Virus record (IMG/VR): IMGVR_UViG_3300014000_000001
Location: 64,001 to 128,000 of that record
Length of the DNA stretch: 64,000 bases
Direction: 5' to 3' (one strand)
Source: a virus
Taxonomy: Duplodnaviria; Caudoviricetes
The notes below the pieces were generated by a model that saw only the letters and a list, made by a program, of their open reading frames with translations, was not told the DNA's origin and did not search any database. Position numbers and translations under genes: made by a program. This document shows, one piece after another, positions 1,943 through 58,390 of this stretch (positions are counted from its first letter, which is position 1; each line of letters starts with the position of its first letter).

Positions 1943-3628
1943 ATGGCAGCGACTACCGTCATTCCGATTCTCATTAGCGATTATGATCGCGAGGTTGGAA
2001 ATAAGCTTTGGCATTGGGAACAAATTTATCGTGGTTCCAATCTAGAGATTTATGATAATAAAAGTATTCTAAAGCGTTATGTTCCAGAAGTGGGTGATAT
2101 TGTCATGCATCCTACCAATGGGGATTGGATTGTTCAATCGGTTTCTGAAAACTATATTCCGACGATGACTCCAAGAACGATTGTGGATAATGATAGTGAT
2201 GTGAACGATAATATTGTTGTTCCTTCATCTAGTTACTCTCGACGTGCAGATGCAATTCATGTCGATAATACCAGTACTCCAATTCGTTTTTATATCAATA
2301 GCCGAATTTGGTTTAACGGTTCTCAAGCTTCTCATTACAAGATCTTTTTAGGTACACGTATTGGAGATGGAGGCAATTCAATTGGTGCCGTCTACAACGC
2401 TAACCACCAAATTGTTTCTGATAACATTGAACTTGAGTTAGCTGCATTTGATCGCGATGTAACCAACCTCACTGTTAAATCACCTAAGTCGGGATATCTA
2501 CGTGAACTCCCACCTGAGGGCGAGTTGGTCACTGTTGTAGCTTACGCAAATGATGGTCGTCAGCTAGATGCGCAGGTATTGGTCGTCACTTACGAAAATA
2601 TTATTGCGTCTAATAAGGCAGTTAAGTTCATTGCAGACATCAGCTTAGATACTCCATATTTAAGCGAAGATGATTCAAGTGTCGTTGAGATTCCAAGAAA
2701 CATGAATCTAGAATCTCTAGCTTTCTTTGGTATTGCAACTTACAATGACGGTTCCCCATCTCAACGTTATCCTGTTAATGGTACTAAGTTTTCACTATTC
2801 GGTGCTGAAGCTTACACTGCGTCGGTAGATATGAGTAGCGTTGGTGTGGTACTCTCGTATGCCCTTGGTGATGATGAATCTGCTGTAGATACTACAGGTT
2901 TAGTTACACGGAGTAAGACCAAGAGTTACCGAATCAAAACCTTACCTTCAGATGCGGCGTATTCTGTTAAGTTATTTGTACTTCCTTATTGGAATGCCCA
3001 GATTGCAAAATGGCAACTACGTTATGTACTTTACGATATGCGTCGCTCAATTAATATTGATGTGACTGATTTGGTTGAGGTTAACCAAGCCTATAAGTTT
3101 AATCCTGACTTGTATAATCAGAAACAAACCATTAAGGTTGCAATCAATCTACAGAACGTTGGTGCTGAATACACATTCTATCGTCCAGTACAAAGTTTCT
3201 ACATCACATTACTTAAGCCTGGAGAAACGCCGAATCAAGCCGCGTACTATCTCCTTAGTTATTCCAGTGATGTAACGATTGGTAGTACTCTGATCGCTCA
3301 ACGTCGCCAAAGCAGTGGTACTATGTCTTTGGATCTAAGCTGTGGTGCAACTTCAGTAGAGGATTACCTTGCTAAGATCTACAAGAACATCGAAGTACTT
3401 TATACTCCAGATGTAGCTGCTCCACCTAATCCAACCAAATTCCGTTTGAAACTTTACGGTACAAACGTTGTCAATGTTTACCCAATTGATAAAATTGTAA
3501 CTGGGGTTTCTGGGCTTGTGGGTTCTTGGGCTCAAGGACAAACGGCAGTAGTCGAATTCTTTGCTGAATCAGCAGGTCAGGCATTAGAGTTAGGAATGCT
3601 TGCTTATCCGATTAACGTTATCAACTAA
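1943..3628 (+). CDS. Virion structural protein (phiKZ gp26-like by synteny)
   Basis: 561 aa beta-rich ORF with GGAG RBS, immediately upstream of terminase. Confidence 0.6.
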   Translation: MAATTVIPILISDYDREVGNKLWHWEQIYRGSNLEIYDNKSILKRYVPEVGDIVMHPTNGDWIVQSVSENYIPTMTPRTIVDNDSDVNDNIVVPSSSYSRRADAIHVDNTSTPIRFYINSRIWFNGSQASHYKIFLGTRIGDGGNSIGAVYNANHQIVSDNIELELAAFDRDVTNLTVKSPKSGYLRELPPEGELVTVVAYANDGRQLDAQVLVVTYENIIASNKAVKFIADISLDTPYLSEDDSSVVEIPRNMNLESLAFFGIATYNDGSPSQRYPVNGTKFSLFGAEAYTASVDMSSVGVVLSYALGDDESAVDTTGLVTRSKTKSYRIKTLPSDAAYSVKLFVLPYWNAQIAKWQLRYVLYDMRRSINIDVTDLVEVNQAYKFNPDLYNQKQTIKVAINLQNVGAEYTFYRPVQSFYITLLKPGETPNQAAYYLLSYSSDVTIGSTLIAQRRQSSGTMSLDLSCGATSVEDYLAKIYKNIEVLYTPDVAAPPNPTKFRLKLYGTNVVNVYPIDKIVTGVSGLVGSWAQGQTAVVEFFAESAGQALELGMLAYPINVIN

Positions 3629-3633
3629 TAACC

Positions 3634-3667
3634 TTCATCAGAGTTAGGATATCCTAACTCTGATGAA
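3634..3667. repeat. Perfect 34-bp palindrome upstream of terminase
   Basis: TTCATCAGAGTTAGGAT-ATCCTAACTCTGATGAA; no U-tract on either side. Confidence 0.9.
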
Positions 3668-33023: not shown

Positions 33024-33059
33024 ATAAAAAGATCAGGAGCCTAGGCTCCTGATCTTTTG

Positions 33060-42366: not shown

Positions 42367-44334
42367 ATGGGTATGACTCAAATCGGCGGTGGTTCAAATA
42401 ACAACGACCGCAAAAATGATCGCGATAACAACAACTACGGTAATGACCGTGGTCGTGAGCGTTCTCAAGAAGATCGCGATCGTGCTGATCTTCGCGGCGC
42501 AAGTCAGAGCTTGCGCCAAACAGCAGCTAACCCATTCGGTACGGCTGTTTCAACTTCGCGCTCTCTAGGAGCACTCAACAACTACACTTCAAACTACGTT
42601 GCTGCAAAAACCCGTGGTAAATCAATCGATATGAAAACCTTCGTGGTTGAAGAAGGGGTTGCAGTTCCATCGGTAGTGATTGCAGCGATTGCAAGCAAAG
42701 ACAATCAAAAGTTTGTTATTTCGCACGCAATCATGTTGGTGAACAACGCCCAACCACCTGCTCCTTTATTGGATCAAAACATCCAAGGCATCATGTACCG
42801 TGACAACACCACATGGGCAGATGCTTACGATGATAAATACCAAGCTGCAATCATCGAAGTGGTTGAGCGTGATTTAGCGGAAAAGGTGGAATTCATTTCA
42901 GCAGGTGCGACTGCTGTAGATTATACCTTTATTCCAACTGAAAAGTTGTTGAATGAAAACAACTTCCAATCATTACAGTTGGACAACTTGATCTTAAACG
43001 TAATGAGTGGTATTGAAGCAGTTCGTGCAATCGAATCTGACGATACATCTCGTGACATTAAACCATCTAACTCAAACCTAGATGCACAAATCGTTGCTGA
43101 TGTATCATTACAACCATCAACTTCAACTCAGCCAAACGGTGATCCATTGGCAGAAGACTTCTTGATTAAGTTGTCAGAAGTACCGAATGATCGTCGCGAT
43201 CGTAAGCGTAACGAACCACGTTCATTAAACCAAACAGGTGAAAGCAACAACCGAGCTTATGGTGCGGTATCGGGCCGTATTGATTTTAAATATGTAGAAC
43301 CAGTTCAAGTAGCTCGTGGATGGCGTCCACAACCAGGTGATTCAGCTTGCTTTATCCCTGAGTTCATTATCGCTGGTTTCGATGTATTGGATATGCAACC
43401 AAGCTTAACACTGATGTTGCAATTGATTGCATCCGTTGGTATCTTGGATTCTCGTAATCCTCCGTTTTATCTTGATGCATTCTTACCTGCTAACTTAACC
43501 AATAACAGTTCTCGTAACTTAGGTGCGTTGCAGGCGGAAATGCAAGATCCTGAAAATGGTCAACGTTTGGAACGTCTGGAGTTAAAACCATCAACAGACA
43601 TGATCACTTTCCAAAAGTTCGTGACTGCCGCGATTCAGGAAAAAGTATCTATTGCAATCGAAATCCCAACTCAAGGTCCATTGGTTGGTTTGTTAAACAC
43701 CTTCGATCAAGCAGTAGATTACAATGGTCGTGAAGGTACTGAAGCCGCTTACTTCAATGGTTTAATTGTTGAAGCTGCTGATGTATTGACTGAAGGTGCA
43801 TTCAGTGACATGTGGACTCCTGGTACACCAGTAATGTTACGTAAACGTGCAATCATTCCAACTGGTTACTGGATTGATGGTCAACAAAACAAACGTGATT
43901 CACGTGAGTTTGGTTACCTTTACTATGCGAATGTGGATAACCCACAAGAAGCTTATGAGCTTTCAGTACAGTACGATAAGTCATTCGACATTGATGATCA
44001 ATTGATTGCAGCCGCTGAACGTCGTCGTTTAATCGAAGATGTACAAGGTAGCAATTTCGTACAAACTGATAACGTAAGCCGCGTGTATTTCAATCCAGAA
44101 TTCTTCGCATGTTTGCTTGATGCGATGAACAGCTCAGGCATGGCGCCAGCAATTGGTAACGCAGCTTATGCTGGTCGTGGTCAATCTCGTCGTCGTGTGG
44201 ATGACAGCAACTACCTTGACAGTGGTCGTCTGGAAAACTCTTACCAACGTTACAACGGTAATAGCCGTGATGATCGTGGTTACAACTATAACTCACGTGG
44301 TTACGGTGCTTCACGTAACTGGCGTATTCGTTAA
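42367..44334 (+). CDS. chmA: Chimallin, major phage nuclear shell protein (phiKZ gp54-like)
   Basis: 655 aa between the gp52-like gene and nvRNAP beta'; IP.GYW.D....KRD.R.F.YL and RVYFNP.F motifs; highly biased codon usage; own promoter and terminator. Confidence 0.85.
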   Translation: MGMTQIGGGSNNNDRKNDRDNNNYGNDRGRERSQEDRDRADLRGASQSLRQTAANPFGTAVSTSRSLGALNNYTSNYVAAKTRGKSIDMKTFVVEEGVAVPSVVIAAIASKDNQKFVISHAIMLVNNAQPPAPLLDQNIQGIMYRDNTTWADAYDDKYQAAIIEVVERDLAEKVEFISAGATAVDYTFIPTEKLLNENNFQSLQLDNLILNVMSGIEAVRAIESDDTSRDIKPSNSNLDAQIVADVSLQPSTSTQPNGDPLAEDFLIKLSEVPNDRRDRKRNEPRSLNQTGESNNRAYGAVSGRIDFKYVEPVQVARGWRPQPGDSACFIPEFIIAGFDVLDMQPSLTLMLQLIASVGILDSRNPPFYLDAFLPANLTNNSSRNLGALQAEMQDPENGQRLERLELKPSTDMITFQKFVTAAIQEKVSIAIEIPTQGPLVGLLNTFDQAVDYNGREGTEAAYFNGLIVEAADVLTEGAFSDMWTPGTPVMLRKRAIIPTGYWIDGQQNKRDSREFGYLYYANVDNPQEAYELSVQYDKSFDIDDQLIAAAERRRLIEDVQGSNFVQTDNVSRVYFNPEFFACLLDAMNSSGMAPAIGNAAYAGRGQSRRRVDDSNYLDSGRLENSYQRYNGNSRDDRGYNYNSRGYGASRNWRIR

Positions 44335-44411: not shown

Positions 44412-45687
44412 ATGTTTCAACGACATATCGATCCAGACTATCCTAATTTCACCTATGACCCAGCAGTTGTGGTGGCTTTAGATAACTTGGATGATTACTT
44501 TAAAGAGGACTCATCGGAACGCGAAGTGTTTATCGCAAACGACTTTCAGGTGGATACGGAAGACAAACGTGAACATCTTGTAGATATGTTAACCAAAACA
44601 TATAGTCGTGAATTTCTTGATGAACCAATCAATGGTGCAAATTCCTTGTTTGAGAAAGTTGCTCCGTCAATGTGGATACGTCCAGTGGGTAATGGTAAAT
44701 TTGTTCAACCTAAGTTTCTATCCATGCTCACTAAAGCACTCACTCGTGATCGAGTGAATATGGTGCAATATGCGATGGACCCAAGTTATAAACTACCCAT
44801 TACTAAAACTCCATCTGGATTACTTAAAACATTCTTAGATGCTGGGTTCCCACGTGGAATGAAAGCATTCCATGATCATTTCGATGAAATCATGGATATC
44901 CTAATCATGAATCAATATCGTAAGCGTGAAGCTCGTCGTAATGCAATAGGTGAAGGGCGTAGAACCTCTGCTCGTAACACGATGGATTACATTGCGATGT
45001 GTATTGAGAAATACCGAGATTCAATCTTTTGTGAACATTTACCTGTGCCGTCTAATCAGGTATTTATCATGGAAAAGCGTGGAAAGAATAAAGTCTCTGA
45101 AGTACCACTTATGCAGTACGCGTTTGATGCGGTACATACGGTGACTTCTATTTCATCACGTATCCGTGGTGTGTCTCCACGTGAAGCAGATCGACTTGAT
45201 TATAAAGTCAATGATCTGATGAGTGAGTTCTACGAGAAATACTCTCAAAATTATCTTACTTCTAAACCTGGAGTGTTCCGTAAAAACAGTTATGGTACTT
45301 CATCGTCGTTTAATGCACGAGCAGTAATTGTATCTCGTCAAGGGATTCAAAACTACGATGAGATCATCATCCCTTATTCATTAGGATTTAAAATATTCGA
45401 ACACCATATTGCGAAAATCTATATTGATGATAAGCAGTTTAGCCCAATTGATATTTTTGAAATGCGTGCTGAATATGCAAAACAGTTTAATAAAGGTATT
45501 CATAATGTGATGAACACCCTAGTCAGTGATTTCTGGGGTGGACGTGGATGGCCGAATAACTTCTTACGCCATCCATATTTATCAAAATTATCCTCTCAGT
45601 TCTTCTACATTCCAGAAGTAGGAACTGACCCTTTAGATACCACGATACAATTATCCCCAATGGTATTAAAAGGTCCCAACGCAGACT
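44412..45687 (+). CDS. Non-virion RNA polymerase beta' subunit (phiKZ gp55-like), exon 1
   Basis: K.G.FRK..YG, F.ARAVI, R.P.L and GPNAD motifs; interrupted inside NADFDGD. Confidence 0.9.
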
Positions 45688-46122
45688 CAACCATTTCGTT
45701 CAAATGTCGGGGTCCTTATCATGGTAACATGGTTCGAAAAACTTCGTTAATTGCTGGAACGTACCCTAAAGCCGCTTAGCTAGTATTAGCGTCGAAAGAC
45801 AGAAACAATAAAGCGGATGGTCTAAGCTTAAATGAAAGCTTATCTGTTTAGATAGGTGCTAAGGATCGTGTTTAATGGGCAATCAGCAGCCACGTTTGCA
45901 TAGGCTTCAAAAGAGTAATGGAAACAGGTTCGACGGTCGTGAGGGTTGCGCCTCTTAGCCGATTCATGGATGAACGGTGAAAATGAAGCGTCCTAGGATA
46001 AGTCCCACAAGGATAATGTTAGGATGGTGGTATGACCTATAGATTCTCGAAAGAGATGAACAAAAGGAACATTTAGTTTTAAAGATTACATAAAGTGTGG
46101 TTCAGTAATGTGGAGAAAAAAG

Positions 46123-46881
46123 ATGTTAACCATTCTCGAACATATGGACTACGAACACCCAAACCCTGCAGTTATTAGCCATACTCAGGGTCGTTATGTC
46201 TTAGACAAAGACACTAAAATTGTCTATGATAACTATCTGAAAAAAGAAATTAATCCTGATCCGGATAGTGGGTTATATCCGATTAACGTCCTTGAACAAT
46301 ATAACATGACATACTGGGAATTATACATGTTGTCGTTCAAGGCAAATCATATCCCCACTCACGATTTCTTAAAAGCTCTAGGAAATGGCGCTATATTTGC
46401 TTATGTAGCACACCCCACTATCGATGCGGACGAGTTATCGATAGATCAGAATATACCTAGTCGGGATTTATCCTGGTTCATCGATGTGAAATGTTCAAAT
46501 ATAGCTGGAGCCCGGTATATTCCGACGTTTACTCGTTATGTGATGGATAACGATTTTAATATTTATCAATTAGGTGATGGGTCTTTTAAAAAGATTAATG
46601 AACCAATCCCTTGGGAAGCTGAAAATGTGGAGGAACAGCTTAATGATATAATTGTATTTCTTCAGAGAGATGATAATGTTTGGGAAGAAGTTTATTGGAT
46701 TGACCTTGTTGGGATAATGTTTCTAGAACCCAAAGATGATCCAATATTTGTAGATCATCTATTTACATCAAGACAGTATATATTTAATCAAATACCTCTG
46801 AAATTAGAAGATGTCGAAAGCGGTGATTGGTTATCACAAAATATCGATATGATTTTAGATGAAAGAGACGATGAGGATTAA
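46123..46881 (+). CDS. Intron ORF1: acidic paralog of the HNH endonuclease lacking the HNH motif
   Basis: GGAG RBS before ATG 46123; blockwise similarity to the N-terminal half of ORF2. Confidence 0.7.
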   Translation: MLTILEHMDYEHPNPAVISHTQGRYVLDKDTKIVYDNYLKKEINPDPDSGLYPINVLEQYNMTYWELYMLSFKANHIPTHDFLKALGNGAIFAYVAHPTIDADELSIDQNIPSRDLSWFIDVKCSNIAGARYIPTFTRYVMDNDFNIYQLGDGSFKKINEPIPWEAENVEEQLNDIIVFLQRDDNVWEEVYWIDLVGIMFLEPKDDPIFVDHLFTSRQYIFNQIPLKLEDVESGDWLSQNIDMILDERDDED

Positions 46882-46883
46882 AT

Positions 46884-48017
46884 ATGTCTAGCAAAAACAC
46901 TAACCGACCAATTCATCGCTGGCACCACAAAAACAAAGCGATATCCTATACTTTAAACCGTTTTGAATATGATCGATTGTTAGGTGTTGTAACAGATGTC
47001 GCCAATGGAGATATTATTCAGTTAATTGATGGGTATTTTCATTTAAATGATTTTATCTTTAATAAATTGACTGAAGCCGAAGCCTGGATGTTAACTCATA
47101 AACCCTTAAACATACCTGCTTGGGATTTTATCAGGGCTTGGAAGAATAACGAAATTAAGATCATAGGTAATTCAAGAAACCCTTCTAAAGATACTACGTT
47201 CTGGAAGTTTAAAATAGAATCTAGCTATTATCCTGGTTTCTATTACATTCCTGGTTACACGAACTACGTTGTTAACGAGAGTGGTCGAGTTATATCATTA
47301 TTTAAAGGGATTGAATTACGATTTCATTCTAACGGTGATGGTTATCTAACAGCGAATATGGTTTCGGATGACTCATTGAACGGCGTAGTTCCTATCCACC
47401 CGTTAGTTGCTTTTACTTTTAAGGATTGGAGTTTAGAGGATGTTATCAATAATGAAATAGATCATATTGATGGTAATACTGAAAATACTCATGAAAGTAA
47501 TTTAGAATTCGTATCTCAAGCAGAAAATATTAAGAGGATAGCTAGAAATAACTACTACGGTAAGAGAACTCACCATTGCGATATCTATTATCGGGATCTT
47601 AAAACAGGAGAAAAAGGTATTGTTAAAACCCAACGAGAACTAGCTAACCGAATTAGTGATTTAGGTGCGAGTACGATACAGAACCATCTAAGTAAATCCA
47701 AACCCAACGCGACCCTAAAGTCAAGATATGTAATCGCATATGTGAAAGATGAATCAGATATACAATACCTAGATGGTTTAGATGCTAAGTATTTTGATCT
47801 GCGTTCTGGTTCCCAGGCTAGAGCGACGCTGATAAAGAATATAAGCACTGGTGAAATCAAGCGTTTCGATAAAATGAGAGATGCTTTTAATTACATCAGT
47901 AGTATTATTAATATTACATTTAAACCATTTAGTGATAGGTTGGCGAAAGGTATTCAAAAAGATTTTGATGGTTATATCTTTAAATACGAAGATATAACAG
48001 ACGATTGGATTTTATAA
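46884..48017 (+). CDS. Intron ORF2: HNH homing endonuclease (NUMOD4-like, HNH_3, C-terminal NUMOD1-like repeats)
   Basis: IPGY.NY.V...GRV.S, GYL, IH.LVA.TF, IDHIDGN..N....NLE.VS..EN; two C-terminal K.GE-helix repeats. Confidence 0.9.
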   Translation: MSSKNTNRPIHRWHHKNKAISYTLNRFEYDRLLGVVTDVANGDIIQLIDGYFHLNDFIFNKLTEAEAWMLTHKPLNIPAWDFIRAWKNNEIKIIGNSRNPSKDTTFWKFKIESSYYPGFYYIPGYTNYVVNESGRVISLFKGIELRFHSNGDGYLTANMVSDDSLNGVVPIHPLVAFTFKDWSLEDVINNEIDHIDGNTENTHESNLEFVSQAENIKRIARNNYYGKRTHHCDIYYRDLKTGEKGIVKTQRELANRISDLGASTIQNHLSKSKPNATLKSRYVIAYVKDESDIQYLDGLDAKYFDLRSGSQARATLIKNISTGEIKRFDKMRDAFNYISSIINITFKPFSDRLAKGIQKDFDGYIFKYEDITDDWIL

Positions 48018-48118
48018 CTATAAACCAACTGAACCACACTTTATGTAATCTTTAGGCTAAAAAGATTTAAACTGTTCTTATGATTAGATACAAACTAATC
48101 ACTTAGGATACAAACCGG

Positions 48119-48303
48119 TCGACGGAGATGAGATGGTCTTGTCTCTTCATTTAGATAAATACACAGCAGATCTGTGGAGTTCAACTCGTCCTTCCGAGGG
48201 CGCATTGGATCAAAACAAAGCATTATCGTATTCAGGAGATTTAGATCTCTCTAAACCGATGATCCTTCAATTCTATCGATACCTAAGTCTCGATAAGAAG
48301 TAA
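48119..48303 (+). CDS. nvRNAP beta' subunit, exon 2 (absent from the ORF track)
   Basis: (F)DGDEMVLSLHLDKYTADLWSSTRPSEGALDQNKALSYSGDLDLSKPMILQFYRYLSLDKK*. Confidence 0.9.
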
Positions 48304-58325: not shown

Positions 58326-58390
58326 CATATAGTGAAGAATAAGGAGCCTAGGCTCCTTATTCTTTTTTTACGCTGTTATATTTAACCCAA

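What the first reader, a model, noticed from the sequence alone, without database searches (positions are those of the whole stretch)
46065..48079. Perfect 27-bp inverted repeat loops out the 1.9-kb ORF cassette from the ribozyme
Seen: 46080-46106 is the exact reverse complement of 48028-48054. Pairing extends outward imperfectly with G-U pairs (AGGAACA/TGTTCTT). The whole catalytic core (P3-P8) lies before 46040, so the cassette sits in the P9 region. Inference: a long stem brings the 3' splice site back to the core across ~2 kb. A wobble-free 27 bp is unusually perfect for an RNA stem, so it could also be a DNA-level terminal repeat of a separately mobile or invertible cassette, or an RNase III substrate that releases the ORF mRNA.
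Basis: partly seen in the sequence, partly recalled or inferred. Interest (0 to 1): 0.72.

Follow-up and report, generated by a model that had tools for sequence, protein, structure and literature searches.

The report
Long RNA stem closing an intron's endonuclease cassette
A self-splicing intron in a giant phage's RNA polymerase gene carries two extra genes, and an unusually long, perfect 27-base-pair stem folds them out of the way; this is a known design in an extreme form, not a new kind of element.

Summary
46080-46106 is the exact reverse complement of 48028-48054. It is the longest perfect inverted repeat (arms 6 kb apart or less) in the 232.8-kb phage genome, and each arm occurs only once.

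The repeat lies in a 2,431-nt group I intron (45688-48118). The intron splits the NADFDGD catalytic motif of the non-virion RNA polymerase beta' gene of a nucleus-forming jumbo phage. The ribozyme core ends at the P9 hairpin (46045-56). The repeat plus an imperfect outer extension with G-U pairs (46065-79 / 48055-79) forms a roughly 41-bp P9.1-type helix of -51.5 kcal/mol. Its loop is the two-gene cassette: a paralogue without the HNH domain, then an I-HmuI-like HNH endonuclease. A 64-nt tail holds P9.2 and the 3' splice site.

Homologous introns in other chimalliviruses occur without an ORF, with one ORF, or with a deletion scar. The ORF-bearing ones have closing stems of 5-13 bp, some with compensatory changes.

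So the RNA closing-helix reading is the best supported. A DNA-level transposon or invertible switch is not supported: no target duplication, no recombinase, single copy. RNase III processing remains open. The scan found the same design before on other DNA, with a 14-bp stem. DNA of the closest relatives could not be reached.

The parts
44412..45687 (+). Exon 1 of the non-virion RNA polymerase beta' gene, the gene just downstream of chimallin (42367-44334). It ends ...AAC GCA GAC T.
   Evidence: PHROG 2987 RNA polymerase beta subunit E=4e-74; chimallin PF25677 / PHROG 4795. tblastn to nvRNAP beta' of many chimalliviruses stops at residue 425.
45688..48118 (+). Group I intron, 2,431 nt. The 5' splice site follows U45687 and omega-G is G48118. 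Joining the exons gives AAC GCA GAC T|TC GAC GGA GAT GAG ATG = NADFDGDEM.
   Evidence: Read from the sequence. A profile of 11 related introns, built without the window, hits 45735-45902 with E=7.6e-21. Those relatives match Rfam Intron_gpI at 43-72 bits, four above the gathering score.
45706..45714 (+). Internal guide sequence GUCGG-GGUC. GGUC (45711-14) pairs with exon-1 GACU (45684-87; U-G at the splice site) to form P1. The adjacent GUCGG (45706-10) pairs with exon-2 UCGAC (48119-23) to form P10.
   Evidence: Direct complementarity, coordinates. P1 also appears in the fold of the cassette-deleted intron.
45742..46056 (+). Ribozyme core. P3 45742-48/45982-88; P4 45752-57/45883-88; P7 GGUCG 45935-39 / UGACC 46033-37; P7.1 45941-54; P7.2 45959-77; P8 45989-97/46019-26; P9 UCUC-GAAA-GAGA 46045-56.
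   Evidence: The 5' half is shown by homology. The 3' half was mapped by hand: P7 changes are compensatory relative to relatives, which have GACUA/UAGUC, GAUCA/UGAUC and GAGUA/UACUC. A covariance model of the 3' half aligns end to end at exactly 45929-46056 but scores only 8 bits, E=0.29, which is not significant.
46065..46106 (+). 5' strand of the long P9.1-type closing helix. The outer imperfect part is 46065-79 and the perfect 27-nt arm is 46080-46106.
46108..46143 (+). Local hairpin right after the long helix. The Shine-Dalgarno GGAGAA (46112-17) pairs with UUCUC (46133-37), and the ORF-A start codon (46123) lies in the loop.
   Evidence: Predicted in the whole-intron and local folds. Prediction only.
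46123..46881 (+). ORF-A, 252 aa. A paralogue of the N-terminal 142 aa of ORF-B without an HNH domain; no family match.
   Evidence: BLASTP 28% identity over 145 aa, E=1e-7. No Pfam or PHROG hit. Homologues of 86% and 55% identity begin at this methionine.
46884..48017 (+). ORF-B, 377 aa, an I-HmuI-like HNH homing endonuclease. Its start lies 2 nt after the ORF-A stop.
   Evidence: PHROG 59 and 959, E about 1e-18. Pfam HNH_3 20.2 bits, below the 24.8 cut-off. PDB 1U3E (I-HmuI) E=1e-4.
48028..48079 (+). 3' strand of the closing helix. The perfect arm is 48028-54, starting 10 nt after the ORF-B stop. The outer part is 48055-79, with an 11-nt bulge at 48062-72 in the predicted fold.
48081..48101 (+). 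P9.2 hairpin (UGAUUAG / CUAAUCA, 7 bp), followed by the 17-nt 3' end of the intron.
48119..48303 (+). Exon 2 of the beta' gene (DGDEMVL... to the stop).
   Evidence: It aligns in length and motif with the C-terminal tails of intron-containing relatives and of the uninterrupted gene of Xanthomonas phage RTH11.

Best explanation
The inverted repeat acts in the RNA. It is the closing helix of a peripheral P9.1-type arm of a group IA-like intron. The intron interrupts the catalytic NADFDGD motif of a chimallivirus non-virion RNA polymerase beta' gene. After the core (P1-P9, 45688-46056) is transcribed, about 1.9 kb of cassette follows: a non-HNH paralogue and an HNH homing endonuclease. When the 3' arm emerges, it pairs with the 5' arm. 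That shuts the cassette into a loop and places the 64-nt 3' tail (P9.2, omega-G, P10 partner) beside the core, so exon ligation can restore the essential gene. The arms sit 16 nt before the ORF-A start codon and 10 nt after the ORF-B stop. This is about as tight as a ribosome footprint allows. The cassette most likely entered a pre-existing peripheral hairpin, as it did in the PA7 lineage. Shown here: the repeat, the splice junction, homology of the 5' half of the core, the position of the helix, and shorter closing stems in relatives. Inferred: that the helix forms in vivo, that splicing needs it, and how it arose.
For: (1) The repeat is exact and far beyond chance. The whole 2.4-kb intron folds with it in the minimum-free-energy structure.
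(2) Splice sites: joining U45687 to U48119 restores NADFDGDEM. P1 and P10 use adjacent halves of one guide sequence.
(3) Intron family: nhmmer E=7.6e-21 to introns that match Rfam Intron_gpI.
(4) Position: the helix begins 8 nt after the P9 hairpin and is followed by P9.2 and omega-G.
(5) Relatives:
- Miami, HHBS8_1 and USC-1 carry one HNH ORF downstream of P9.2, closed by GCCUC/GAGGC, GCCUCUC/GAGAGGC and GUCCUUCA/UGAAGGGC. Three positions change on both sides.
- In USC-1 versus its ORF-less congener Aphrodite1, ORF and stem are present or absent together.
- PA7, whose endonuclease is the best database match to ORF-B, has a 13-bp perfect stem plus 5 more pairs. The start codon lies inside the 5' arm and the stop abuts the 3' arm (0 of 200 shuffles reached 13).
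- PS119XW has only a palindromic hairpin at that spot. KEN49 keeps the stem around a deletion scar.
(6) The outer 15 pairs include three G-U pairs. On the other strand these would be A-C mismatches, so at least that part is shaped for the sense RNA.
Against: Relatives manage loops of about 1 kb with 5-13 bp, so 27 perfect pairs (about 41 in all) is more than loop closure needs. The absence of any wobble pair in the 27 bp is mildly unusual for an old RNA helix. The window itself gets no Rfam Intron_gpI hit. The model of the 3' half of the core is not significant, so that half rests on hand-mapped helices. No compensatory change could be scored in this helix itself, because DNA of the 86%- and 55%-identical relatives was unreachable. 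No RNA data were available.
Confidence: 0.65

Rival explanations
1. The helix is also, or mainly, a double-strand-RNA processing site. Host RNase III cuts the perfect 27-bp segment and releases a bicistronic endonuclease mRNA from the intron. The proximal 15-25 bp still clamp the two ribozyme halves together. Splicing inside the phage nucleus would shield the pre-mRNA from the cytoplasmic enzyme.
For: 27 uninterrupted Watson-Crick pairs exceed the roughly 20-22 bp that bacterial RNase III needs (established knowledge of the enzyme, not tested here). The helix is two to five times longer than any closing stem in the seven other cassettes compared. The arms bracket the two ORFs tightly. The phage encodes chimallin, so transcription is presumably separated from the cytoplasm (PMC12908238).
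Against: No cleavage data. No RNase III gene in the phage record. The host is unknown. Relatives with 5-13 bp stems evidently express their endonucleases without such a site. Cleavage before splicing would endanger an essential mRNA.
Confidence: 0.2
2. The perfect repeat is a young, unselected by-product of how the cassette was inserted or rearranged, for example by template switching or duplication of a hairpin. It persists because it is harmless.
For: Perfect identity without wobble pairs fits a recent origin. In the PA7 lineage the arms look like a duplicated palindromic core (GACAUGUC) of a pre-existing hairpin, so insertion can itself create or lengthen such repeats. The inner perfect part contrasts with the degenerate outer part.
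Against: The window's arms are not themselves palindromic, so the PA7 route does not apply directly. The cassette is not brand new: ORF-A has 86% and 55% identical homologues elsewhere. The placement just outside the ribosome footprints at both ends looks adapted.
Confidence: 0.1
3. The repeat works in the DNA, either as terminal inverted repeats of a separately transposing cassette or as crossover sites of an invertible segment.
For: Exact 27-bp identity and tight bracketing of the cassette. In relatives, ORF and stem are gained or lost as a unit.
Against: No direct repeat flanks the arms. The cassette encodes only an HNH endonuclease and its non-HNH paralogue, with no transposase or invertase family. 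The arms are single-copy in the genome, and their 8-mers are not dispersed repeats. The exact arm sequence has no copy in the viral collection, and its 20-nt core has none in the metagenome collection. Both ORFs face the same way as the host gene and have ribosome-binding sites. The helix continues outward with G-U pairs.
Confidence: 0.05

Closest known systems
Phage T4 nrdD (sunY) group I intron with its endonuclease ORF downstream of the core (Michel et al. 1992 and Shub et al. 1988, recalled from memory; Loizos et al. as summarised in PMC3984707)
   Same: A phage group IA-type intron in an essential gene. The endonuclease ORF lies 3' of the catalytic core in the P9 region. The 3' splice site is far from the core and must be brought back by pairing of the sequences that flank the ORF.
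   Different: Here the closing helix is a perfect 27 bp (about 41 bp with its extension). The cassette holds two genes. The endonuclease is HNH (I-HmuI-like), not GIY-YIG. The Loizos-type resemblance between the ORF flanks and the exon junction is absent.
Introns with HNH endonucleases in the same nvRNAP beta' gene of other chimalliviruses (PA7/phiKZ-group gp56-type, Miami, HHBS8_1, USC-1). The phiKZ gp56 intron endonuclease was predicted in 2002, as cited in PMC10914365.
   Same: Same host gene, next to chimallin. Same catalytic motif targeted. Homologous ribozyme 5' half. HNH ORF looped out 3' of P9 by a stem. PA7's endonuclease is the best database match to ORF-B.
   Different: The insertion site differs: after GACT here, after GGT in most, after GGAGAT in PA7. 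Their stems are 5-13 bp and they carry one ORF. PA7's stem buries the start codon, whereas here the helix ends 5 nt before the Shine-Dalgarno, which a separate small hairpin may cover.
PhiPA3 gp210 intron endonuclease in a virion RNA polymerase gene (Birkholz et al. 2024, PMC11620839)
   Same: An I-HmuI-like HNH nicking endonuclease in a group I intron, placed at conserved aspartates of a chimallivirus RNA polymerase subunit.
   Different: A different polymerase (virion versus non-virion). That paper does not describe a long closing helix or a second ORF (no such passage).
Stem-closed homing-endonuclease cassettes noted earlier in this scan (e1-121773: 14-bp stem in a giant-phage RNAP intron; e1-5740669: 25-bp stem in a phage tmRNA gene)
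   Same: An endonuclease gene bracketed by a perfect or near-perfect helix that restores the host RNA's fold. Gene and stem are gained or lost together.
   Different: Those are AI notes. Only the general design was re-tested here, on other relatives. This helix is the longest of them and encloses two genes.

Membership tests
Group I intron (Rfam RF00028) | Removal restores a continuous, conserved reading frame | tested here: met
   U45687 joined to U48119 gives NADFDGDEM. The exon-2 tail matches the tails of homologues, including an uninterrupted gene.
Group I intron (Rfam RF00028) | U at -1 in a U-G pair of P1, a guide sequence that also forms P10, and G as the last intron base | tested here: met
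   GACU/GGUC and UCGAC/GUCGG lie on adjacent halves of 45706-14, and G48118 is the last intron base. P1 is only 4-5 bp.
Group I intron (Rfam RF00028) | Match to the family covariance model | tested here: not met
   The window has no Intron_gpI hit even at E<=10. Relatives score 43-72 bits. The 2-kb insert and the extra P7.2/P8 length may explain the miss.
Group I intron (Rfam RF00028) | Sequence homology to introns that pass the model | tested here: met
   An nhmmer profile built without the window hits 45735-45902 (P3-P6) with E=7.6e-21. blastn to the phage Miami intron gives E=5e-5.
Group I intron (Rfam RF00028) | P3/P7 pseudoknot and P8/P9 in the 3' half of the core | tested here: inconclusive
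   The helices are found by hand, and P7 is compensatory relative to relatives. The covariance model R1 aligns to the same endpoints but at 8 bits, E=0.29.
Group I intron (Rfam RF00028) | Self-splicing activity | not testable with these tools
   No RNA data.
Subgroup IA (P7.1/P7.2 between P7 and P3') | Extra hairpins between the 5' strand of P7 and the 3' strand of P3 | tested here: met
   Hairpins at 45941-54 and 45959-77. Relatives have one such hairpin with covariation. The finer subgroup was not determined.
Intron with ORF looped out of a P9.x helix (T4 nrdD-like layout) | ORF 3' of P9, flanked by complementary strands, with further intron sequence and the 3' splice site after it | tested here: met
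   P9 46045-56; helix 46065-46106 / 48028-48079; P9.2 48081-48101; omega-G 48118.
Terminal-inverted-repeat transposon / insertion sequence | Transposase gene, target-site duplication, more than one copy | tested here: not met
   No transposase family in the two ORFs. No flanking direct repeat. The arms are single-copy in the genome, the exact arm is absent from the viral collection and its 20-nt core from the metagenome collection.
Invertible DNA switch | Site-specific recombinase and both orientations in the population | tested here: inconclusive
   There is no recombinase in the cassette. Orientation variants could not be examined because no reads or close relatives were reachable.
RNase III substrate | About 20 bp or more of regular double-stranded RNA, and cleavage by the enzyme | tested here: inconclusive
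   The length criterion is met (27 perfect bp). Cleavage is not testable. No phage RNase III gene was found.
I-HmuI-like HNH homing endonuclease (ORF-B) | HNH motif with an N-terminal NUMOD4-like strand and similarity to I-HmuI | tested here: met
   PHROG 59 and 959, E about 1e-18. PDB 1U3E E=1e-4 over residues 122-218. Pfam HNH_3 is below its cut-off at 20.2 versus 24.8 bits.

The most novel reading that the evidence does not exclude
The helix is deliberately long enough both to be cut and to keep holding. A double-strand-specific RNase (host RNase III) cleaves the distal perfect segment. This frees a bicistronic endonuclease mRNA whose two ends stay paired, in a panhandle-like and exonuclease-resistant form. 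The proximal 15-25 bp keep the 5' and 3' ribozyme halves together, so splicing can finish in trans. Such a perfect double-stranded RNA inside an essential pre-mRNA would be tolerable because transcription and splicing take place inside the chimallin shell, away from cytoplasmic RNases.
Probability: 0.12. Interest if true: 0.6.

Novelty: new member of a known kind. Interest (0 to 1): 0.3.

Why it matters
This is a clean, extreme example of how a selfish endonuclease cassette can sit inside a ribozyme without breaking it. A helix insulates 1.9 kb of cargo in an intron that the phage cannot afford to lose, because the intron splits the active site of an essential polymerase.

The comparison set assembled here shows the full cycle at sub-intron level: ORF-less, one-ORF, two-ORF and scarred versions of related introns. 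It also shows that ORF and stem travel together.

The practical value is for annotation. Exon 2 and the intron are missed by gene callers in many jumbo-phage records. If the long perfect helix proves to be an RNase III site tolerated because of the phage nucleus, it would link intron biology to compartmentalisation, but nothing here shows that.

Tried and rejected
- **Rfam on the window.** Gathering and E<=10 searches gave no group I hit. The family was established through relatives instead.
- **Covariance model of the 3' half-core.** Built from 11 relatives. With default filters it missed the site. With filters off it aligned to exactly 45929-46056, but at a non-significant 8 bits. It is not used as support.
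- **Motif scan of viral contigs** with a conserved intron motif. The two hits (L006, L007) were chance matches on inspection.
- **Close relatives of the cassette.** The exact arm in viral contigs and its 20-nt core in metagenome contigs gave nothing. The search for related loci with beta' exon 1 and with ORF-A (single sequence or alignment) found no relative. ORF-B gave one distant locus (L005, 37% identity), which was not followed up. megablast and tblastn against phage records found no close relative.
- The contigs encoding the 86% and 55% ORF-A homologues therefore could not be read, and covariation in this helix could not be scored.
- **Mimicry of the exon junction by the cassette flanks** (Loizos-type). 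Alignment scores were at or below the shuffle mean. Rejected.
- **Promoter or dispersed-motif reading of the arms.** 8-mer counts are near expectation, and promoter- and terminator-like sites are no more frequent than in shuffles. Rejected.
- **Twin-intron reading.** It was prompted by the internal 9-mer UUCGACGGU at 45929-37. It would give a nonsense junction, and the 9-mer sits at the family's J6/7-P7 position. Rejected.
- **RNAduplex energies on 120-nt flanks** were uninformative. They were replaced by a longest-perfect-repeat test with shuffles.
Full report
**Observation**

The sequence shows 46080-46106 as the exact reverse complement of 48028-48054: 27 nt, with 1921 nt between the arms. 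I scanned the whole 232,790-bp virus record that holds the window. This is the longest perfect inverted repeat with arms 6 kb apart or less. The runner-up (22 nt) is two copies of a palindromic terminator-like hairpin, and everything else is a local hairpin of 19 nt or less. Ten shuffled genomes gave maxima of 14-18 nt. Each arm occurs once in the genome.

**Context**

The window comes from a nucleus-forming jumbo phage. 42367-44334 encodes chimallin (PF25677; PHROG 4795, E=1e-41). The next gene is a non-virion RNA polymerase beta' subunit (PHROG 2987, E=4e-74). tblastn matches to beta' genes of about 220 phages stop at residue 425 of the 455-residue ORF.

Exon 1 ends ...AAC GCA GAC T at 45687. 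At 48119 the sequence continues TC GAC GGA GAT GAG ATG. Joining them restores NADFDGDEM, the universal metal-binding motif. The 60-residue tail after DGD aligns in length and motifs with homologues, including the uninterrupted gene of Xanthomonas phage RTH11. The intron is therefore 45688-48118. Two other first-stage notes reached the same boundaries.

**Is it a group I intron?**

Rfam gives no hit on the window, even at E<=10. The evidence comes from relatives:
- blastn links 45791-45888 to an unannotated gap in the same gene of Klebsiella phage Miami. That gap matches Intron_gpI at E=3.6e-9.
- The Miami core finds homologous introns in the same gene of many chimalliviruses. FishSpeaker, AerS_266, Aphrodite1 and VP4B pass the Rfam gathering score at 55-72 bits.
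- An nhmmer profile of 11 such introns, built without the window, hits 45735-45902 (P3-P6) at E=7.6e-21.

By inspection the window also has the expected elements:
- A textbook guide sequence. GGUC (45711-14) pairs with exon GACU through a U-G pair. The adjacent GUCGG (45706-10) pairs with exon-2 UCGAC to form P10.
- P3 (45742-48/45982-88) and P4 (45752-57/45883-88).
- P7 GGUCG/UGACC (45935-39/46033-37), compensatory relative to the relatives' GACUA/UAGUC, GAUCA/UGAUC and GAGUA/UACUC.
- P7.1, P7.2, P8, a GAAA-capped P9 (46045-56), and omega-G at 48118.

One weakness must be stated. A covariance model of the 3' half-core aligned to exactly 45929-46056, but at only 8 bits, E=0.29. That half therefore rests on hand-mapped helices.

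**Where the repeat sits**

The long helix starts 8 nt after P9. In the minimum-free-energy fold of the whole intron, 46065-46106 pairs with 48028-48079. It comprises 7 outer pairs (AGGAACA/UGUUCUU, one G-U), an 11-nt bulge, 8 pairs with two G-U, and then the perfect segment. The energy is -51.5 kcal/mol in all and -40.2 for the 27 bp alone. After it come a 7-bp P9.2 hairpin (48081-48101) and 17 nt ending in omega-G. This is a P9.1-type peripheral arm whose loop is the cassette.

The arms end 16 nt before the conserved ORF-A start (46123) and begin 10 nt after the ORF-B stop (48017). A small predicted hairpin right after the helix pairs the Shine-Dalgarno GGAGAA with UUCUC.

**The cassette**

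ORF-B is an I-HmuI-like HNH endonuclease (PHROG 59 and 959; PDB 1U3E E=1e-4). ORF-A is a paralogue of ORF-B's N-terminal 142 residues (28% identity, E=1e-7) with no HNH domain and no family match. The cassette has lower G+C (0.35) than the core (0.42).

Homologous introns in this gene come in several states.
- ORF-less, about 370-400 nt: FishSpeaker, VP4B, Aphrodite1, pAEv1810.
- With one HNH ORF inserted between P9.2 and the last hairpin: Miami, HHBS8_1 and USC-1. Each is closed by a short stem: GCCUC/GAGGC, GCCUCUC/GAGAGGC and GUCCUUCA/UGAAGGGC. Three positions change on both sides.
- USC-1 differs from its congener Aphrodite1 by an indel that contains both the stem and the ORF.

The closest database match to ORF-B is in the phiKZ-like phage PA7, again in this gene.
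- There a 13-bp perfect repeat plus 5 more pairs brackets the ORF. An in-frame ATG lies inside the 5' arm and the stop abuts the 3' arm.
- PS119XW (92% identical core) has only a palindromic hairpin at that spot. KEN49 (97% identical) keeps the stem around a 17-nt remnant of the ORF.
- In this lineage the endonuclease entered the tip of a native hairpin and can be lost again.

Across seven other endonuclease cassettes, the longest perfect bracketing repeats are 13, 12 and 7-9 nt. The 7-9 nt values are at chance level, against 27 here. An earlier report of this scan described the same design with a 14-bp stem in another giant phage.

**Reading**

The best-supported explanation is an RNA closing helix that insulates the ribozyme from 1.9 kb of cargo and returns the 3' splice site to the core. 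I put this at about 0.65.

The DNA-level alternatives fare poorly:
- No flanking direct repeat.
- No transposase or invertase.
- Single-copy arms that are not a dispersed motif.
- Both ORFs oriented with the host gene.
- G-U pairs in the helix extension.

RNase III processing is possible on length alone. It is untested, and the phage has no RNase III gene of its own. A recent neutral origin cannot be excluded, because I could not score covariation in this helix.

**Known or new**

Introns with HNH endonucleases in chimallivirus RNA polymerase genes are known. Examples are phiPA3 gp210 (PMC11620839), the review PMC12908238, and the phiKZ gp56 prediction cited in PMC10914365. ORFs looped out 3' of the core are classical (T4 nrdD/sunY, from memory; Loizos et al. 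via PMC3984707).

What is particular here is a matter of degree: a perfect 27-bp helix (about 41 bp in total) and a two-gene loop, at an insertion site (GACT|TC) that none of the relatives examined uses. I file it as a new member of a known kind, with modest interest.

Noticed in passing
window 45681-45687 / 48119-48129; L010 2503-2994; L013 1150-1492; L019 1875-1893: At least five different group I intron insertion sites fall within about 25 nt of the NADFDGD-coding segment of this one gene across chimalliviruses. They are: before GCAGAC (AerS_266 intron 1), after GAT (ACP1 intron 1), after GACT (this window), after GGT (most phages), and after GGAGAT (PA7). ACP1 and AerS_266 each carry two tandem introns, separated by mini-exons of 9 nt (TTCGACGGT) and 15 nt. 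All four of those introns match Rfam Intron_gpI (E 2e-13 to 4e-8).
   Followed up: partly
outside the window: genome C1:46109-46510 (L017 about 1506-1990): A second, ORF-less group I intron in the same phage genome (Rfam Intron_gpI 44.2 bits, E=4.6e-11). It interrupts a gene at ...GGT GGC GAT AAA ATG TAT GT. A weaker candidate lies at C1:221789-221918 (E=0.003).
   Followed up: no
window 46160-46375 (ORF-A residues 14-84): In the 55%-identical ORF-A homologue P0004, a block of about 70 residues near the N-terminus is almost invariant, while the rest is about 40% identical. This suggests either a mosaic (recombination) boundary or a strongly constrained domain.
   Followed up: no
L019 2215-2227 / 3381-3393; L024 about 2316-2345; L023 about 2318-2375: PA7, PS119XW and KEN49 form a natural series. 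One has a palindromic hairpin (core GCGACATGTCGC). One has the same hairpin split by an HNH gene, with the 8-nt palindromic core present in both arms. One has a deletion scar that keeps the first 5 and last few codons. The annotated PA7 ORF start (2345) is probably 41 codons too late: an in-frame ATG at 2222 lies inside the 5' arm.
   Followed up: partly
window 45929-45937: The intron's J6/7-P7 segment reads TTCGACGGT. This is identical to the consensus exon 9-mer that lies between the two commonest insertion sites and equals the ACP1 mini-exon. The family consensus at this position (TTCAACGAC) already shares 7 of 9 bases, so this may be coincidence, but it could give the endonuclease or the guide sequence a second partner.
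   Followed up: partly
window 46108-46143: A predicted hairpin stacked on the long helix pairs the ORF-A Shine-Dalgarno (GGAGAA) with UUCUC, leaving the AUG in the loop. This recalls the translational masking of T4 intron endonucleases.
   Followed up: no
whole genome, e.g. window 3634-3667, 33027-33058, 58335-58364: Dozens of 15-17-nt perfect palindromes ending ...GGAGCCT|AGGCTCC... are scattered through the genome. They are probably this phage's intrinsic terminators.
   Followed up: no
L020 2279-2290 / 3554-3565: In FishSpeaker's virion RNA polymerase locus, another HNH gene sits between polymerase gene pieces. It is bracketed by a 12-nt perfect inverted repeat (1 of 200 shuffles reached it) that lies just inside the annotated ORF ends.
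   Followed up: no
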